From the NCBI RefSeq assembly GCF_009914755.1, contig NC_060928.1: a stretch of 64,000 nucleotides of DNA; one strand, 5' to 3'. The translations under genes were made by a program, and so were the position numbers. Positions 740-62,164 of this stretch are shown piece by piece. Numbering within the stretch: the first letter of the stretch is position 1; every line of letters begins with the position of its first letter. The notes below the pieces were generated by a model. That model ran no database searches and was not told where the DNA came from. It was given only the letters and a program-made list of their open reading frames with translations. This stretch comes from the human T2T-CHM13v2.0 reference genome, Homo sapiens.

Positions 740-2100
740 TCTATGTATTTATTTATTCTTCACTTAGCACATTTATTGAATGCCTTTTAATGACCAGACA
801 CCGTGCCAAATACAAGATACAAAAATGACAGAGACATATTCCTTGGTCTCAAGAAGTTCACGGTTCATAAAGGCAAACAAATACATAAATAGATGATTAC
901 TATGTGAGATGATAACTGTGATATGGAAACATACATAGCCTATCACAGGAGCACAGAAAAGGCTAGGCAAGAGCTCCTGCAAGCTATGATGACTGAGCTG
1001 AGCTTTAAAGAATAAATAGGAGTGAGCCAGGCACAGGTGTGACTGACAGTACTTCTGGGAGAAAGTGGAGTCTGAGCCATCTCATGAGGTGGTGAAAGCA
1101 GCCCTGCACATCCAGTGAAGAAGGGCAAACTGAGTAGAGCGTGGACTCTGGAACGGGACCACCTGCTCTGCTGCATGCAAGGTGTGTATGCATGTAACTT
1201 TGGGCAAGTAACTGAGCTTCTCTGTGTCTCAGCTGCCTCATCTGTAAACACTGAGATAATTACAGGACCACCTAATAGGGTTTCTGTGACAATTGTGAGC
1301 TAGCATACATAAAGTGCTTAGAGTAGGGCTTGGCGATAGTAAGCATTATGTGAGTTTTTTGTTGCTAGTTTGTGAAGTGAAAAACAAGCAGGACAGGTGA
1401 GAAATGAGGCTGGAGGCATTGGCAGGAGTAAGATGACTGTATCTCATGTTTATGAGCTTGGACTTTATGCTATGTAGCCAGAGGGGACTTTGAAAGGCTT
1501 AAAAAAGTGGGAAATCATGGCGAGATGTTTTTTTTGTCACTCTGGTGACTGCAGCGAATGGGAAAATCTGGAGACAGATTTTACCCAGGGAGCTGTAGTG
1601 CTAGGGAGACATGATATGGAAATGAACTAAGATGTAGCAGTATGTGTAGGAAGAATAGGGAAATTAGTCTGCTCAGGCCACTGAGGGGACATGGGAGTGA
1701 AATGGAGGGGGCGGAGGGGAAACAAGAGTCCAAGATGGCCCCTTAGTGTGTAGTGCTGGTGATTTGGTGGCTGGTGGTACTAGCAACTGACCTAGCTAAT
1801 GGTAAAGGAGGAGCAGGTACAGAGGGGAAGATACTGGGTCCAGATTTTCACATGTAGGTCCTAAAGTTTCTGATGGAAAAGTCCAGCAAGCATTTGAAGT
1901 GTAACACTTGGGAGGAAGGTCAGGACAGATAGAGTTTTAGGAACCATCAGCATGGTGAGGTTGAAATCACGAGTAATAAAATCCCTCATAGGTGGAGGAC
2001 AGAGTCTTGGAATGACATCTACAGTTACAGCGAAAGCTAAGAAGAGGTCTTCAGGTTGGAGGCAAAGAAGGTAGAAGAGCTCCTGGGAGGACTGGAAAAA
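740..2100 (-). mobile_element. Degenerate LINE-2 fragments, interrupted by a MIR
   Basis: Reverse complement of the L2 3' end (cattcat/atttattgaatgcc...gtgcca) followed by typical purine-rich L2 body sequence. Confidence 0.65.
1105..1355 (+). mobile_element. MIR SINE
   Basis: MIR core: tttgggcaagtaactgagcttctctgtgtctcagctgcctcatctgtaaa...aaagtgcttagag. Confidence 0.75.
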
Positions 2101-18740: not shown

Positions 18741-19679
18741 GGGAAGAGAGTGACTATGATTGCTGTATTCAAGCAACAACTGAAAATCGTCAGTGTAATG
18801 GTATTGAAAATAAGGCTATTTTTAAAAATGGAAACGAAACGCGATTAAATCCATAATTGAATACATTTAGGACTTCGCTTTAGAACTAGAGGAGATGTTA
18901 TAGCATCAAGTAGAGTCCCATTTAGATGATTAAGGAGATATTTTGGATTTCTGAAATTAAAAATAGTTTTTCCTGTTTTTCCCTCTGGAAAGTAAAAAAT
19001 AGTTTTTCCCAAGGGTAAAAGGGGAGAAACTATTTTTTACTTTTTAAGTAAAGGTCTAAAATTCCCTCTTTCTGTAGTTGCTCAAATAAAACTGCTAAGC
19101 AAGATGATTTTCTCTGAACATACGTGCAACACATTACCTTGTATTTAGTGATTATGACATATGAACATTCTATGATGCTAAATTAAATTTCTGTAATTAA
19201 GAATAACAATATCCAGATAGTATTTTGCAAAGTACTTCCAAGTCCTTATGCCATTTTAGCCTCTCAATGAGCCTCTGAGAGAGACAGAACAAGTGTTCTT
19301 AGCCCCTTTTTGGACAAAGAATATGAGACTATCAGTGTTTAAATGACTAGTTTAAAATTCTTTGGGTTGTTAAGGGTTATAATCCAAATAATCCAGGATT
19401 ATTGTTAAGATTATAGTTCTCATTGTAATCCTGTAATGTTCTTTTCATTATCTGCAATGACTGGATCTATCTGGTCACTAGAAACGGCCATTCGTGTACG
19501 TTTTTCAGGTTGTACAATTTATAAAAATGCCCACAAATGCAGTTGATGTGAGAATCACCAAGGTGACTGAAGTAATGGATCAGCATTACTGGTTTATTCA
19601 TTTTGCTGATACAGACATATTTTGTGTATTGCCTTTTAAGTATTTATAGAGTAGAATTCCAAGAGCTGACAGATATTAA

Positions 19680-31798: not shown

Positions 31799-32535
31799 CA
31801 CTTTTCCTTTTTTATATCATTAGATTTTCTTAAAGTGAGTCACTCATACTCTCTCTCTCTCATATGCTGGAATAGTCTATATGATGTGACCTTTGCACCA
31901 GTTGTGCCAGATGGTGTGCTTTCATGACAAGTATTCACTCCCCTAAATTATTCCCACAAAAAGGTATAGCTGATTTCTTTTTTTCTGATAGATCTCTGTG
32001 CTAGAGTTAAGTTAATAGAACTCATTCAGATTGGTTATGGTTGTCTTCAGGTCACTCAGCAACATAATTCCTTTTTTCTGAGTGAGTCCTAGCTTATACT
32101 CTGTAAGGTAGATTTGGCTGCGTTGAGCTATTGTCTAAGAGTGGTAGACTCCAGTATGCAAATTGCACCCAATTTATACAGCTTGGGAGTGTGTTTTCTT
32201 ATCAAAGATTACTGTATTTCCTAAACCAAAGGGAAAATAAATTAGGATGGACTAGTGTTAGAGAAAAAGCTACTGCTTTTGGTACATGTTCATTTCAGGA
32301 AGCACTGTGTAAATGAAAACTTTCCAATTTTTGCCCAAGGGCTGACTCTGTTTGAAGGACTATTAATTTTAGACATAATCAAGAGAAATTATAGGCCCAG
32401 ATGTAGGGAAATCAGAATGCTGCAAATATTTGAGCACTATTAATTATTTTAGCTTTTACAAAGCTAACTTTGAAATTTGAGTTAGCCATTAGCTCAAAGT
32501 AAAAACCCAAAATAGCTATAGATAAATTTTCCTCT

Positions 32536-32649
32536 TGTGTATATGTGTGTGTGCATGTGTGTGTGTGTGTATATATATATATATACATATATATACACAC
32601 ACACACATACACACACACATATATATGTATATATATACACACACACACA
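32536..32649. repeat. Compound (TG)n(TA)n(CA)n microsatellite
   Basis: Directly visible in the sequence. Confidence 0.95.
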
Positions 32650-32789
32650 AATCATAAATGTGCATGTGTATATATAAGATAAATAAAATGATAAAGTCTA
32701 AAATATCTTAGTGGTTTATAAATGCTATTCATGTAATATTGGACAAGCCATGTTTCAGAGTTTCCACTTTCTTTTTATATTTGCCTACT

Positions 32790-40991: not shown

Positions 40992-41538
40992 TACCAAACT
41001 CCATTAGTTTCTGTGAACACACATGACAAAAAAATTCAGATGGGTTATTTCAGTGGTTTTCAGATTGTTTTAAGCAGCAGATCCTTTTCTTAAGATAGAG
41101 TTTTACAGTGTGGAAGTGAGATACACTCTCTGCTTTAATTGGAGAAGGGCCTCCAAGCTGCCTCTCCAGAAGGCCCAGAGAGGTGTGGAGGATAATTGAA
41201 ACCCTCCACTCTGATTTATCCAAAAATACACTCCCACATTTAAAGTCAGCTCTTTTTGGGATCAGTCGTAATCCTTAATGCTGACACCGCATGGAAAATA
41301 TATAAGCAGAATGATGCCCAAGTTATAGAAGTTCCTCTTCCTGGATTTTGTCTTCAATTGTAACTGTAGTTCCTACCGTGTGGTTGTATGTGTTGTTAGT
41401 TTGTTTTTGTTTTGTTTTGTTTGGGAAAGGTGACATTTCATCTCCAATCTAATGAGTGAGAAAGATGCTTATTCTGACAAATTTTCTTCACAATATTTCA
41501 TAGGTGTGCCAAGCTGACAGATTGGTTGACTCTGTACT

Positions 41539-41673
41539 CTTTTATTTTATTCCTGTAACTGGGCCAGTTTCTGCCCTTAACTAAAACTGGATCAATTATA
41601 GGAGTGAAATAAAGGTCCATCTCCTGCCTATTTATTACTTTGCTTTGGTAATAAATCTATTTTTAAAAGAACC
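41539..41673 (+). ncRNA. MIR1243: microRNA-1243 locus (mature AACUGGAUCAAUUAUAGGAGUG at 41585-41606)
   Basis: 41581-41673 matches my recall of the 93-nt annotated precursor; the best hairpin visible in the sequence spans 41539-41615. Confidence 0.85.
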
Positions 41674-41938
41674 TATTACAGAGACTTCCATTTGGAATTA
41701 TGCATACTTGGTGTCAAATGGTGATTGTTTTTTGTTGTGTTTTTCCATTCGAAACAAAGCTTTTGTGAGGCGTCCCTTTATTCTGATTAAGGCCTGGTGT
41801 AAATCTTTGATAATGAAGCCCATTAACAAAAATGACTATAAATAGCTCTACTTCTATCAGGGATATTAAATACTTTCTCAAGCACACATGCTCACTGATT
41901 TTAAGACTCATTCCACAGTGTTCCAAGTTGCGTGTTAG

Positions 41939-50999: not shown

Positions 51000-52007
51000 G
51001 CTTGGGTGGTGCCTGCTTTCCTCTTTCCCATTCTCTATCCCTGCCTTCCTCTCCCTCTTTTGAGCTCCCCGCTCTTTCTCCCAGGAAAACCTCGCTGAGC
51101 CCAGATTATATTGTTTGTTCACTGACAGCTCTTTTCTATGCTTAATGCAGCTCCCTAATTCAGCCTCACGTGGATCTGTAAATGGTACAGTGAGGACCCG
51201 GCTACTTCTAGCCCTTCCCAGACCTGCTCACCCCTGTATTGCCACGGCAGTGGCAAGTAACTCCAACTGTGCTCCTCTTCTCCCAAAACAGCAACGTCGA
51301 TTCTTTACTTTAAATGAACCTTGGAGAAGGAAAGGGCTGTGAGATGAAAAAGGCAGGAATTCATGTCATGTGCTACAGCAGAGCAGCCGTAGCAACGGCA
51401 GTAACAGCAGTAGCACGGCGGCAGCAGCAGCAGCAGCAGCAGAGTCCTTTAGCGAGACTGCACCATTTTCTTCTCACCCTGCATAGAGGTGTGGTTGGAA
51501 GCAGCAATAAACTACCCACCCCCTAGCAGTTTCACAGAGGTGGCCTCTTCCTGGCTCCAGTCAGAAGACACAGTCTGTCTGGAGGAGTCCCCAAAGACTG
51601 TTCCAATTGGTGATGTGTGTCTAAGGATGGCTTTTTCAACTAGTAGGATGCTTCTCTGCACTTGCAGCCACCCAACTGCTGAAGAGCTGGAAGTCTAGTG
51701 CTCCGCCTTCCCCCGGGACCATTTCTGAGTGTGGGTGCACACCTATGCCTGTGTGCGTGCAGGTGTGTGCTGCTGGAGGTCTCGGTTTGGGACCTTAGTT
51801 CATTGTAGTGAGTTGTGGGTGCTGCAGAGGCTGGAGCAAGATTATGACCTAGCTCGGGGGCGGAGTGGATTATCTTGTGAGTGTTCTGGCTGCCAGCCAT
51901 TGCCCTGGTGGGGAAAATCACATCTCCATAGAGCTCTGAAATCACCTGGATTGCTGGGGAGTGGAAACTGATCCTCTGCTACTGCTTCTGCTGATTTCCT
52001 CTGCAAA
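51000..52007 (+). promoter_or_regulatory. ANK2: Alternative promoter / 5' UTR of the ANK2 alternative first exon
   Basis: Local rise in GC and CpG; GC box gggggcggagt (51856-51866), E-box cacgtg (51167-51172) and CAG tract directly upstream of the ATG exon. TSS cannot be placed from sequence. Confidence 0.6.
51422..51442 (+). repeat. (CAG)7 trinucleotide repeat within a longer degenerate GCA-rich tract
   Basis: cacggcgg followed by cagcagcagcagcagcagcag. Confidence 0.95.
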
Positions 52008-52136
52008 ATGGCTCACGCTGCTGCTTCTATTAAAAAAGTTCGAGAGGCTGATCTGGATGAAAAGGAAAAAAATCTTGAGAGAGACAGAAAAAAACAACGG
52101 AAAATCCCCAGAGAACGTATGGAACGAAAAAGAAAG
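52008..52136 (+). CDS. ANK2: Ankyrin-B alternative first coding exon, MAHAAASIKKVREADLDEKEKNLERDRKKQRKIPRERMERKRK (43 aa, partial CDS)
   Basis: Kozak aaaATGg; upstream in-frame TGA at 51969-51971; phase-0 donor AAG|GTATGA; similarity to the ANK3 MAHAASQLKK...RDRKKK and ANK1 MAQAAKQLKK N-termini. Confidence 0.88.
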
Positions 52137-59695: not shown

Positions 59696-62164
59696 CAGAG
59701 ATATGACAATCATTATAAACATGTATCTTAATCTAATCAATTTATTTGGTTAAGACTAATGGTGTTATTTCACATTAACCTATATTTCTTGGCTTTTTAT
59801 ATATTTTTGCATAGAGACTTATTAATTACCAATTTTAACTCACTTGTTTATAGTTTGTCTGTAAAAAAAGCCTTCAATTAAGACTGAAAATGACCTCTCT
59901 TTGTGTATTTGAATGTAATTAATGATGGTTTTTCCAAAAGTCTATTTTTTAGCGAAAAAACTTAATCTCTATGTTATTTTTTCATAAATAAATAATGTTA
60001 ACCTCACAAACATGAATTCTAATAATCTACTTTACTTTTATTATTATAAAGATCAAATATGATTTTTGCGTTTGAAACAAAGTTTAGCCGATAACCCTTT
60101 CAAGACATTCAGCAGGATAAGAGGTGGATGTGAAATCTAAGATTATAAAAAACAGGCAACATACCAGAAAGCTGTTTACTAAGTTAATAAAGTATATTTA
60201 TACAAAATTACCAGATACTTCTAAAGCTCCATAAAAACAAATTCAGGAGACCTCTGCTTAATTCTGTCTACTCACTACAACCTTGGGTAAACAAATGACC
60301 TCAGTTTTTGCATCTATAAAATGATAAGGATCTGAGATCTGTTAGAATTCTTCCTGTCTTTATGCTTCTGTGTCATTTTAATTGTTTCTTTGCTTCCCTT
60401 TATTATTATAAATGATTAAGACAGTTGGTAGAATTTCCAGGTTTTTCTTCATTTAAGATAAATTTTTTTTGAGCTGACACTATGTCGTAGACAGAGTACC
60501 TTTACCCAAGGAGCTCATAGACCTCCTTGGGTGATAGGAACTTTTCACAGATAATAAGAATGAAATGTTAGTTGTGCCACTATGTTAGAATTGAGATTGT
60601 CTATTTTTGTTTATATGACGCAAGTTTTCTTTAATAGGTGTTACCTGTGAGATGAAATAATGGAAGGAAATAGTTCCTGTTGTGGTGCATGAAATTTTAT
60701 GGAAGTTATTAAGACTGGGTATATACAAAATGAAGTAATCATATAAAGCTATATGGTTGTTTTGTATTTCAGATACTGATTTGAGCCATTTTGAAGGAAG
60801 AAATTTATTGTGGTTCCCTGAGAACCACAGTTGATTTCTCCTGAAGTTTATTCTCACTTTTCTTTTAGGTACTCTGTACACTGATAATACCAGGAGTTAG
60901 AAATTCACAGAGAAATATCATCATTGTTTAATTAATCATTTTACAAAGATCTGATGGCAGTAATGACAGCTGCCTTTAAATTGCAGGGTGCTGTAATAAA
61001 CAAAAGTCCACAGTAAACGCTTAAACCTCAGCAATTCACAAACCTTTCAATTGTACAGCTTAGTGAAAATAAATCTCCTGAGTTCTTCTACAGGTAGTAG
61101 TACAAACTTCCTTATTTATGGCTCCTGCCTCAAACTGGGCCAGAATGCTTAATTAAACCATGTCACATCCTAAAATGACTGAAACCAATAAAATGTAAGT
61201 GGAACAGGTTACCTGGAAACAGTAACTTCTTTGAGGACAGAGGTTACTTAGGAAATGAGCTTTCGTTCAGGGTGGTCACCTACAAAACATGGGGCTTCAC
61301 TGTGGGCTCCGAGGGACAGGAATCAAAGCCTGGGTGTGGGTGGGAGAGAGAAAAGCCATCTGTGAAATCACACGTTTCCATTACTGGGGAGAAGGGAGAC
61401 AACAAAGGACCCAGTAGCAGATGCCAATTCTCTGACTACAAACACATTATCGAATATAAGGGCCCTTGTATATAACATCAAGCACTCATACTCAGTCTTT
61501 CAACACAAGGGACAATATTTTAGAACTTTCAGCTTTCATACTAGAAAAGAGAACCAAAATATAAAAGAAGACTTTGTAATATGCTAATATGACAAATATT
61601 TTGCCATTGAAGGAAACTTGATGATTAAGACTAATTCCCATTAATCACTGTAATTGGCCTTCACATGAGGGCCTTCTGGGTTATGTATTCTTTAGTAAGT
61701 TGTATAAGAGCATCTGAAACAATTTAGTCACTCCAATGATCTTTAAAAGTTTGTAAAACTTTATTTTTGATCAAGAAATTCAGAGAATGATGCTTCTTAG
61801 TTTTAATCACATTTTCACTTACAATCAAACAGAAGCTCTTTTAAATTATGCTTGTTTTATTTATCTTCTTTCATGTCTTAGAAAAACATTTGCCATGCTT
61901 CACTTTTCCATCAAGCATCCTCCCTATTTCCAAAGTCGGTTCAGATGTATATAATATATATAATTCAGGGTATTGCAGTCCCTTGGATGGAAGAATTATT
62001 TGTTGAATAACTGCTATGAGCCAAATTTTAAATTGAGAGATAAAGATTATTTACTGAGTAAAAAAATATTTTCTCTCAAGTAACTTCCCTTTTAGATAGA
62101 TATTTAAGGTCAATGGCAATGGAAAAATTAGAGTACAGAGCTAGATTAGGTATCATAACTTTTA

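What the first reader, a model, noticed from the sequence alone, without database searches (positions are those of the whole stretch)
41539..41627. miR-1243 sits on the 3' arm of an upstream-shifted canonical hairpin; precursor probably mis-annotated and a 5p strand predicted
Seen in sequence: 41541-41570 (tttattttattcctgtaactgggccagttt) pairs without gaps with 41584-41613 (aaactggatcaattataggagtgaaataaa), giving 24 Watson-Crick pairs, 4 G:U pairs and 2 mismatches around a 13-nt loop, extendable to 41539/41615. The G:U pattern favours the + strand. Taking the mature sequence as 41585-41606, 2-nt 3' overhangs give a 57-nt pre-miRNA (41550-41606), an 11-bp basal stem (the canonical Drosha distance), a 22-nt 5p strand UUCCUGUAACUGGGCCAGUUUC (41550-41571) and a CNNC (CTGC, 41624-41627) at +18. 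From recall, the annotated precursor is 41581-41673, which omits the whole 5' arm and has no comparable stem. Inference: the mature product is really a 3p miRNA, and constructs built on the annotated precursor alone would not be processed properly.
Basis: partly seen in the sequence, partly recalled or inferred. Interest (0 to 1): 0.8.

Follow-up and report, generated by a model that had tools for sequence, protein, structure and literature searches.

The report
miR-1243 hairpin annotated one arm off
The small RNA called miR-1243 sits on the 3' arm of a strong hairpin that starts about 40 bases upstream of the official precursor, so the database precursor is most likely drawn in the wrong place; this is a correction to a weakly expressed known gene, not a new kind of element.

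Summary
Arms 41541-41570 and 41584-41613 give 24 Watson-Crick pairs, 4 G:U pairs and 2 mismatches.

**Folding**
- The 121-nt + strand context folds at -34.7 kcal/mol, z -4.2; 0 of 200 shuffles fold as well.
- The annotated precursor 41581-41673 folds at -14.8, z -0.66; 42 of 200 shuffles fold as well.
- In 250-350-nt contexts the mature bases pair upstream with mean probability 0.876 and downstream with 0.000.
- Only 4 of 1500 random 22-mers from the window sit on an equally stable unbranched hairpin.

**Published data**
- On the annotated hairpin, 609 of 615 reads are the mature form and 0 are its inferred star.
- miRDeep2 predicted a macaque mir-1243 de novo (score 17.7). Its 21-nt product equals window 41584-41604.
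- A 3' end at 41604 gives a 13/11-nt lower stem.

**Not shown:** 5p reads, Drosha or Dicer dependence, and AGO loading.

**Weak points:** only one of four Microprocessor motifs is present (CNNC), and expression is low, below 100 cpm at most.

**Verdict:** this is probably a canonical intronic miRNA of ANK2 with a mis-drawn human precursor. The kind is known, the value is an annotation correction, and interest is modest.

The parts
41539..41570 (+). 5' arm of the upstream-shifted hairpin; lies wholly outside the annotated precursor
   Evidence: Pairs with 41584-41615: 25 WC, 5 G:U, 2 mismatches. Kept in the MFE and centroid folds of the 121- and 201-nt contexts.
41571..41583 (+). 13-nt apical loop
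   Evidence: Folds.
41584..41615 (+). 3' arm of the hairpin
   Evidence: Probability of the expected upstream partner is 0.92 or more at 19 of the 22 mature positions.
41585..41606 (+). Annotated mature miR-1243, read here as the 3p product
   Evidence: RefSeq row in the hub table. miRBase mature at 5-26 of the 93-nt hairpin, 609 of 615 reads. 19 of 22 bases pair with the upstream arm.
41584..41604 (+). Stretch identical to the 21-nt macaque mml-mir-1243 product; alternative 3p ends
   Evidence: Table 3 of PMC3328248 against the window stretch printed. These ends leave a 13-nt (5' strand) and 11-nt (3' strand) lower stem.
41550..41571 (+). Predicted 5p strand, unverified; it would be 41552-41572 with macaque-type ends
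   Evidence: Inferred from 2-nt 3' overhangs on the fold. No read evidence seen. It lies outside the annotated precursor, so one search's counts could not include it.
41624..41627 (+). CNNC word (CTGC) at +18 from the 3' cut at 41606
   Evidence: Further CNNC words start at +12 and +15.
41581..41673 (+). Annotated MIR1243 precursor (RefSeq, miRBase); not supported as the structure that forms
   Evidence: -14.8 kcal/mol, z -0.66, 42 of 200 shuffles as good. MFEI 0.53 against 1.17 for the upstream hairpin. 0 star reads.
41630..41656 (+). Small local 10-bp hairpin that occupies half of the annotated 'star' region
   Evidence: MFE folds.

Best explanation
miR-1243 is the 3p product of a canonical intronic pri-miRNA hairpin at 41539-41615 on the sense strand of an ANK2 intron.

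Proposed mechanism:
- The hairpin is transcribed as part of the ANK2 pre-mRNA.
- Microprocessor measures from the basal junction at 41539/41615. It cuts near 41549-41551 on the 5' strand and 41604-41606 on the 3' strand, releasing a pre-miRNA of about 55-57 nt.
- Dicer cuts next to the 13-nt loop, creating the 5' end at 41584/41585.
- The 3p strand is retained because its 5' end is the less stably paired end of the duplex.

The human database precursor 41581-41673 was drawn downstream from the read and is wrong.

Shown here: the structure, its statistics, the lack of a competing downstream fold, the absence of star reads on the annotated hairpin, and expression of the same small RNA in macaque. 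Inferred: the cleavage sites, Drosha and Dicer dependence, AGO loading and the existence of a 5p strand.
For: **Structure**
- 32-position stem with a 13-nt loop, -31.7 kcal/mol for 77 nt, MFEI 1.17 at 35% GC.
- z -4.2 with 0 of 200 shuffles as good.
- The stem is kept in 201-, 250- and 350-nt contexts. The mature bases pair upstream with mean probability 0.876 and downstream with 0.000.

**Coincidence**
- 4 of 1500 random 22-mers of the window sit on an equally stable unbranched hairpin.

**Excision test**
- Read stack taken as 3p (-70/+20): -35.7, with 19 of 22 bases paired.
- Read stack taken as 5p (-20/+70): -17.0, three hairpin loops, 13 of 22 paired.

**Published human reads on the annotated hairpin**
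- 609 mature, 0 star, 615 total, 32 libraries, precision 99.02%.
- The ends are therefore sharp, but there is no partner where the annotation expects one.

**Macaque**
- mml-mir-1243 was predicted de novo by miRDeep2, score 17.7. [quoted passage not shown]
- Its 21-nt product equals window 41584-41604.
- A 3' end at 41604 leaves a 13/11-nt lower stem.

**Strand choice and pre-miRNA shape**
- The terminal 4 bp at the 3p 5' end score -0.1 kcal/mol, against -1.7 at the 5p 5' end.
- 2-nt 3' overhang, 57-nt pre-miRNA, CNNC at +18.
Against: - No read on the 5' arm has been seen by me. The decisive signature, two arms with 2-nt offsets, is untested.
- Three of four Microprocessor motifs are absent: no UG at -14/-13, no apical UGU/GUG, no mismatched GHG.
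- With the human ends the lower stem is 11/9 nt, 2 short of the geometry I recall as optimal. The stem spans 32 positions rather than about 35.
- Human and macaque 5' ends differ by 1 nt, so the seed is not fixed across the two annotations.
- Expression is low: maxima of 13.45, 27.53 and 75.6 cpm in three compilations.
- Hairpins of this strength occur roughly once per 10-15 kb in this window.
- I could not see the macaque precursor, so its use of the upstream hairpin is inferred, not read.
Confidence: 0.72

Rival explanations
1. The small RNA is not a Drosha/Dicer product. It is a stable fragment of the ANK2 intron, perhaps protected by lying in a duplex, or favoured by ligation bias. The hairpin is then incidental to its production.
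For: - Low abundance: below 100 cpm at most; 615 reads over 32 libraries.
- No star read is recorded anywhere I could look.
- Only 1 of 4 processing motifs is present.
- Comparable hairpins are not rare in this window.
- A published summary says only 758 of 1881 miRBase pri-miRNAs were efficiently cleaved by purified Microprocessor, so many entries are doubtful.
Against: - 99.02% of reads on the locus are the one species.
- The ends fit a 2-nt overhang and a loop-adjacent Dicer cut.
- The same small RNA, shifted by 1 nt, scored 17.7 in miRDeep2 in macaque.
- The chance of such a hairpin under a random 22-mer is 4 in 1500.
Confidence: 0.17
2. The hairpin is the source, but processing is Drosha-independent. 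Dicer would act on an endogenous short hairpin released by other nucleases.
For: - Three of four Microprocessor motifs are absent.
- The lower stem is 2 nt short with the human ends.
- The stem is nearly perfect (2 mismatches in 32 positions), as in hairpin-derived siRNAs (comparison from recall).
Against: - Single-stranded flanks, a 13-nt loop, CNNC at +18 and a 13/11 lower stem with macaque-type ends fit Microprocessor.
- It is not a mirtron: the nearest annotated exon is 51727-52136, about 10 kb away (hub table).
- No alternative route that would define the 3' end is apparent.
Confidence: 0.07
3. The annotation is right. The mature RNA is the 5p product of the 93-nt hairpin 41581-41673.
For: - This is the fold held by miRBase and RefSeq (hub table).
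- Folded alone, the 93-mer does pair the mature region with 41643-41664; miRScore counted 4 mismatches and 0 bulges.
Against: - z -0.66, with 42 of 200 shuffles as good.
- MFEI 0.53.
- Downstream pairing probability 0.000 once the flanks are present.
- The would-be star region forms its own stem at 41630-41656.
- 0 star reads of 615.
- The pre-miRNA would be about 80 nt with a structured loop of about 36 nt.
Confidence: 0.03

Closest known systems
Canonical intronic animal miRNA hairpins processed by Drosha-DGCR8 and then Dicer
   Same: About three helical turns of imperfect stem, single-stranded flanks, a loop over 10 nt, a 22-nt product one base from the loop, a 2-nt 3' overhang, a downstream CNNC, and sense orientation in a host-gene intron.
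   Different: No basal UG, apical UGU/GUG or mismatched GHG. The stem spans 32 positions rather than about 35. Products from both arms and enzyme dependence are not shown. Expression is low.
hsa-mir-1243 as held by miRBase and RefSeq (93 nt, 41581-41673)
   Same: Same mature sequence and same strand (hub table).
   Different: The database places the mature RNA on the 5' arm of a fold no better than shuffled sequence. The reading here places it on the 3' arm of a hairpin whose 5' arm starts 42 nt upstream of the annotated start.
mml-mir-1243 (rhesus macaque; Dannemann et al. 2012, PMC3328248)
   Same: The 21-nt product is identical to window 41584-41604. It was found de novo from reads plus a hairpin model.
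   Different: Its 5' end is 1 nt upstream and its 3' end 2 nt upstream of the human mature. I could not see its precursor sequence, so its use of the upstream hairpin is inferred.
Doubtful miRBase entries described in the 'non-existent microRNA' literature (PMC12008284)
   Same: Low expression, absence from stringent sets (recalled), a functional literature that in the one paper I opened rests on synthetic mimics, and failure in an automated validation.
   Different: Here the failure has a specific cause that can be corrected: a mis-placed precursor. miR-1243 is not mentioned in that paper's main text or in its one held supplementary file.

Membership tests
Canonical miRNA gene (structural and read criteria of the MirGeneDB type, criteria recalled) | Hairpin with at least 16 paired positions between the mature region and the opposite arm | tested here: met
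   19 of 22 mature bases pair with the upstream arm; the stem has 30 of 32 positions paired when G:U pairs are counted.
Canonical miRNA gene (structural and read criteria of the MirGeneDB type, criteria recalled) | Fold clearly more stable than shuffled sequence, unbranched | tested here: met
   z -4.20, 0 of 200 shuffles as good; a single stem-loop. MFEI 1.17.
Canonical miRNA gene (structural and read criteria of the MirGeneDB type, criteria recalled) | Reads from both arms offset by 2 nt (Drosha and Dicer signatures) | not testable with these tools
   No read data are available here. The published counts cover only the annotated 93 nt, which excludes the predicted 5p.
Canonical miRNA gene (structural and read criteria of the MirGeneDB type, criteria recalled) | Homogeneous 5' end of the mature product | tested here: inconclusive
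   609 of 615 reads fall in the mature class, precision 99.02%. The macaque product starts 1 nt upstream.
Canonical miRNA gene (structural and read criteria of the MirGeneDB type, criteria recalled) | Lower stem of about 11-13 bp from a single-stranded basal junction, and about 22 bp up to the apical junction | tested here: met
   11/9 nt with the human ends and 13/11 nt with macaque-type ends; 21 bp of upper stem; unpaired flanks.
Canonical miRNA gene (structural and read criteria of the MirGeneDB type, criteria recalled) | Microprocessor sequence motifs (basal UG, apical UGU/GUG, CNNC, mismatched GHG); helpful, not obligatory | tested here: inconclusive
   1 of 4 present, CNNC at +18. AC lies at -14/-13, there is no UGU/GUG at the loop start, and ATA lies opposite -7..-5.
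Canonical miRNA gene (structural and read criteria of the MirGeneDB type, criteria recalled) | Dependence on DROSHA/DGCR8 and DICER1; loading into AGO | not testable with these tools
   No such data were found for miR-1243 in the texts I could read.
Canonical miRNA gene (structural and read criteria of the MirGeneDB type, criteria recalled) | Conservation of the product in related species | tested here: met
   The macaque small RNA is identical to 41584-41604 over its 21 nt. Conservation of the arms could not be tested because no primate genomes are held.
Annotated hsa-mir-1243 hairpin 41581-41673 | The annotated stretch forms a hairpin better than chance, with a star product | tested here: not met
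   z -0.66, 42 of 200 shuffles as good. Downstream pairing probability 0.000 in context. 0 star reads.
Mirtron | Hairpin ends coincide with splice sites of a short intron | tested here: not met
   The nearest annotated exon in the window is 51727-52136 (hub table). The hairpin lies deep in a large ANK2 intron.
Transposon-derived palindromic miRNA hairpin (MITE type, such as the miR-548 family; recalled) | Many related copies in the genome | tested here: not met
   The 121-nt query matched only itself. The 401-nt query matched itself plus one 35-nt simple-repeat match. The tool states that its counts are lower bounds and that it skips very common words.
Rfam miRNA family | Match at the gathering score to a curated family | tested here: not met
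   6 matches at E up to 10. The best is 21.1 bits against a gathering score of 100. Four of them are generic miRNA-hairpin models aligned to 41539-41615 on the + strand.

The most novel reading that the evidence does not exclude
miR-1243 is a genuine canonical miRNA of the ANK2 intron, shared at least by human and macaque, with an unannotated 5p strand. Its failure in automated validation, and probably in screens built on miRBase hairpins, would then be caused by a precursor drawn on the wrong side of the read. If so, other early deep-sequencing entries may carry the same one-arm shift, and tallies of 'non-processed' miRBase hairpins would be somewhat inflated.
Probability: 0.5. Interest if true: 0.4.

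Novelty: already known. Interest (0 to 1): 0.3.

Why it matters
**Size of the literature**
- A 2025 compilation counted 41 PubMed titles or abstracts on miR-1243.
- My full-text search found 181 papers that mention it.

**What the correction does not touch**
- The one functional paper whose methods I read used synthetic mimics, which a precursor shift does not affect.

**What the correction does affect**
- Hairpin expression constructs, knock-outs or edits aimed at 'the precursor', read counting of the star strand, automated validation, and biochemical screens of miRBase hairpins.
- miRScore failed the entry for lack of star reads.
- From recall, the large Microprocessor screen used constructs of about 125 nt centred on the miRBase hairpin. 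Such a construct would lack most of the 5' arm.

**Naming**
- Four papers already write 'miR-1243-5p' and none writes '-3p'. Under this reading the arm label is wrong.

**Overall**
- For biology at large the effect is small: this is a weakly expressed, young miRNA of a familiar kind.

Tried and rejected
**Inverted-repeat search.** The repeat finder with 9-nt exact seeds gave 0 pairs. This is uninformative because G:U pairs and mismatches break the seeds.

**Rfam.** No family matched at the gathering score.

**Mirtron.** Rejected on distance to the nearest exon.

**Literature for an existing re-annotation**
- 'mir-1243' with hairpin, miRBase and Drosha: 6 papers, none about the precursor judging by title and abstract start.
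- 'miR-1243-3p': 0 papers.
- With 'ANK2': 0 papers.
- With 'primate': 17 papers.
- With 'transposable': 1 paper.
- Primate ortholog names: 1 paper.
- A six-term search was too loose and returned nothing bearing on miR-1243.

**Papers that could not be read or held nothing**
- The paper I recall as the discovery paper (Morin et al. 2008) is not held under the DOI or the PMC id I tried.
- Brown et al. 2013 and Alles et al. 2019 do not mention 1243 in their main texts.
- The Alles supplement could not be searched, and no supplements were asked for after that.
- The supplements of Dannemann 2012 (macaque precursor), Alles 2019 and the Microprocessor screens may therefore hold data that bear directly on this claim.
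- A look for the construct design of the Microprocessor screen in PMC12379101 found nothing.
- PMC8963304 gave only expression-change statements.

Full report
**1. What is in the sequence**

A script counted the pairs.
- 41541-41570 against 41584-41613 gives 24 Watson-Crick pairs, 4 G:U pairs and 2 mismatches, with no gaps.
- Extending to 41539/41615 gives 25 Watson-Crick pairs, 5 G:U pairs and 2 mismatches.
- The result is a 77-nt stem-loop with a 13-nt loop (41571-41583) and MFE -31.7 kcal/mol.
- RNAfold leaves 41559 and 41562-41563 unpaired, giving a 1x1 and a 2x2 internal loop.
- The annotated mature RNA (41585-41606) starts one base into the 3' arm.
- The 57-nt stretch 41550-41606 folds with a 2-nt 3' overhang at -19.4.

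**2. Is it more than chance?**

| Stretch folded | MFE (kcal/mol) | Shuffle mean / sd | z | Shuffles as good |
|---|---|---|---|---|
| 41520-41640, + strand (121 nt) | -34.7 | -20.7 / 3.3 | -4.20 | 0 of 200 |
| 41520-41640, - strand | -26.0 | -18.69 / 3.12 | -2.34 | 4 of 200 |
| 41581-41673, annotated precursor (93 nt) | -14.8 | -12.8 / 3.1 | -0.66 | 42 of 200 |

- The G:U pairs favour the + strand, which is also the sense strand of ANK2 (hub table).
- Folding 201 nt keeps the upstream hairpin. The downstream region forms its own 10-bp stem at 41630-41656, which uses up half of the annotated 'star'.
- Partition-function folds of 250 and 350 nt give the 22 mature bases a mean probability of 0.876 of pairing upstream and 0.000 of pairing downstream.
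- MFEI is 1.17 for the upstream hairpin and 0.53 for the annotated one.

Hairpins of this strength are not rare in themselves.
- An 80-nt scan covered 25,570 windows in 5-nt steps on both strands, with mean -11.9 and sd 5.6.
- This hairpin ranks about 20th among non-overlapping windows.
- Several better ones are GC-rich or branched. The best is a (TG)n(TA)n(CA)n microsatellite.

What matters is the coincidence with a sequenced small RNA. Of 1500 random 22-mers from both strands, 215 had some unbranched hairpin with at least 16 of 22 bases paired, and 4 had one at or below -31.7.

**3. Geometry and motifs**

- *Human ends.* A 3' cut after 41606 gives a 5' cut before 41550. The lower stem is then 11 nt on the 5' strand and 9 nt on the 3' strand, and the upper stem is 21 bp.
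- *Macaque-type ends.* With 41584-41604 the lower stem is 13 and 11 nt. That is the geometry I recall as canonical from the Microprocessor literature; I did not check this here.
- *CNNC.* Words start at +12, +15 and +18 from the human cut.
- *Missing motifs.* There is no UG at -14/-13 (AC), no UGU/GUG at the start of the loop, and no GHG opposite -7..-5 (ATA). Motif support is therefore weak, at 1 of 4.
- *Strand choice.* The terminal 4 bp at the 3p 5' end score -0.1 kcal/mol, against -1.7 at the predicted 5p 5' end. Over 5 bp the values are -2.7 and -3.3. This mildly favours retention of the 3p strand, in line with what is observed.

**4. What a discovery program would pick**

I imitated the two excisions that miRDeep2 tries, as I recall them, around the read stack.
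- *Stack as 5p (41565-41676).* -17.0 kcal/mol, three hairpin loops, and 13 of 22 mature bases paired. Six of those pair with the remnant of the upstream arm.
- *Stack as 3p (41515-41626).* -35.7 kcal/mol, with 19 of 22 bases paired in the long stem.

**5. Outside evidence**

*miRScore (PMC12594335; supplementary file 2, one passage and the header part read).*
- It lists hsa-mir-1243 with a 93-nt miRBase hairpin that reads the same, compared by eye, as window 41581-41673 as printed.
- The mature RNA is at 5-26 and the inferred star at 63-84.
- The counts are 4 mismatches, 0 bulges, 609 mature reads, 0 star reads, 615 total reads, 32 libraries and 99.02% precision.
- The product therefore has sharp ends but no partner where the annotation expects it.
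- Reads from 41550-41571 could not have been counted, because they lie outside that hairpin.

*iScience 2025 (PMC12450571; passages of three supplementary files).*
- Maxima for hsa-miR-1243 are 13.45, 27.53 and 75.6 cpm.
- The paper lists it among miRNAs below 100 cpm, with 41 PubMed title-or-abstract hits and 7 title hits.

*Dannemann et al. 2012 (PMC3328248; Results section, part 1 of 3 of the prediction-methods section, and one passage of Table 3 read).*
- They sequenced small RNAs of rhesus macaque and predicted mml-mir-1243 de novo with miRDeep2, on chromosome 5, with score 17.7.
- The 21-nt product printed there is identical to window 41584-41604.
- I could not see the macaque precursor. 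Given section 4, the upstream hairpin is the likely one.

*PMC12008284 (passages).*
- It summarises that purified Microprocessor efficiently cleaved 758 of 1881 miRBase pri-miRNAs.
- miR-1243 is not named in its main text or in its one held supplementary file.

**6. What it is not**

- *Not a known Rfam family.* The best match is 21.1 bits against a gathering score of 100. Four of the six weak matches are generic miRNA models laid on 41539-41615 +.
- *Not a multi-copy element.* The 121-nt query matched only itself. The 401-nt query added one 35-nt simple-repeat match. The tool warns that its counts are lower bounds.
- *Not a mirtron.* The nearest annotated exon is about 10 kb away.

**7. Best explanation and its rivals**

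| Reading | Confidence |
|---|---|
| Canonical intronic pri-miRNA at 41539-41615 with miR-1243 as its 3p product; the human precursor is mis-drawn | 0.72 |
| Stable intronic fragment, not an RNase III product | 0.17 |
| Hairpin-derived but Drosha-independent | 0.07 |
| The annotated fold is right | 0.03 |

The narrower statement, that the annotated 93-nt stretch is not the structure that forms, is firmer still, about 0.9.

**8. Is it in print?**

- I found no paper that re-draws the human precursor.
- 'miR-1243-3p' occurs in 0 papers and 'miR-1243-5p' in 4.
- These searches cover open-access full texts only.
- Supplements were unavailable, and I could not consult miRBase or MirGeneDB themselves.
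- That MirGeneDB lacks this gene, and that the entry stems from Morin et al. 2008, are recollections. That paper is not held.

**9. Verdict**

The element is an ordinary miRNA hairpin belonging to an already named gene. The new content is a boundary correction, a predicted 5p strand and a changed arm label. Interest is modest, at 0.3.

Noticed in passing
window 32541-32620 (inside masked repeat 32532-32698): The strongest 80-nt fold of the window (-54.5 on the - strand, -49.4 on the + strand) is a compound (TG)n(TA)n(CA)n microsatellite. It is self-complementary by composition, so the fold is trivial.
   Followed up: partly
window 18956-19035 +: Unbranched AT-rich hairpin (30% GC, -31.6 kcal/mol), about as strong as the miR-1243 hairpin. 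Its arms are inverted copies of an A/T-rich stretch. No small RNA is annotated here.
   Followed up: no
window 1536-1615 + and 60476-60555 +: Two further long unbranched hairpins (-42.5 at 50% GC and -31.3 at 44% GC), neither annotated as an RNA gene. The first lies about 350 nt beyond the RefSeq enhancer 687-1187.
   Followed up: no
window 41630-41656 +: A local 10-bp stem with a 7-nt loop just downstream of the hairpin. It forms in every context fold and occupies half of the 'star' of the annotated precursor.
   Followed up: yes
window 41393-41427: A (TTTG)n-like simple repeat upstream of the hairpin. It gave the only second genomic match of the 401-nt query: 35 nt at 97% identity on contig C1.
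   Followed up: no
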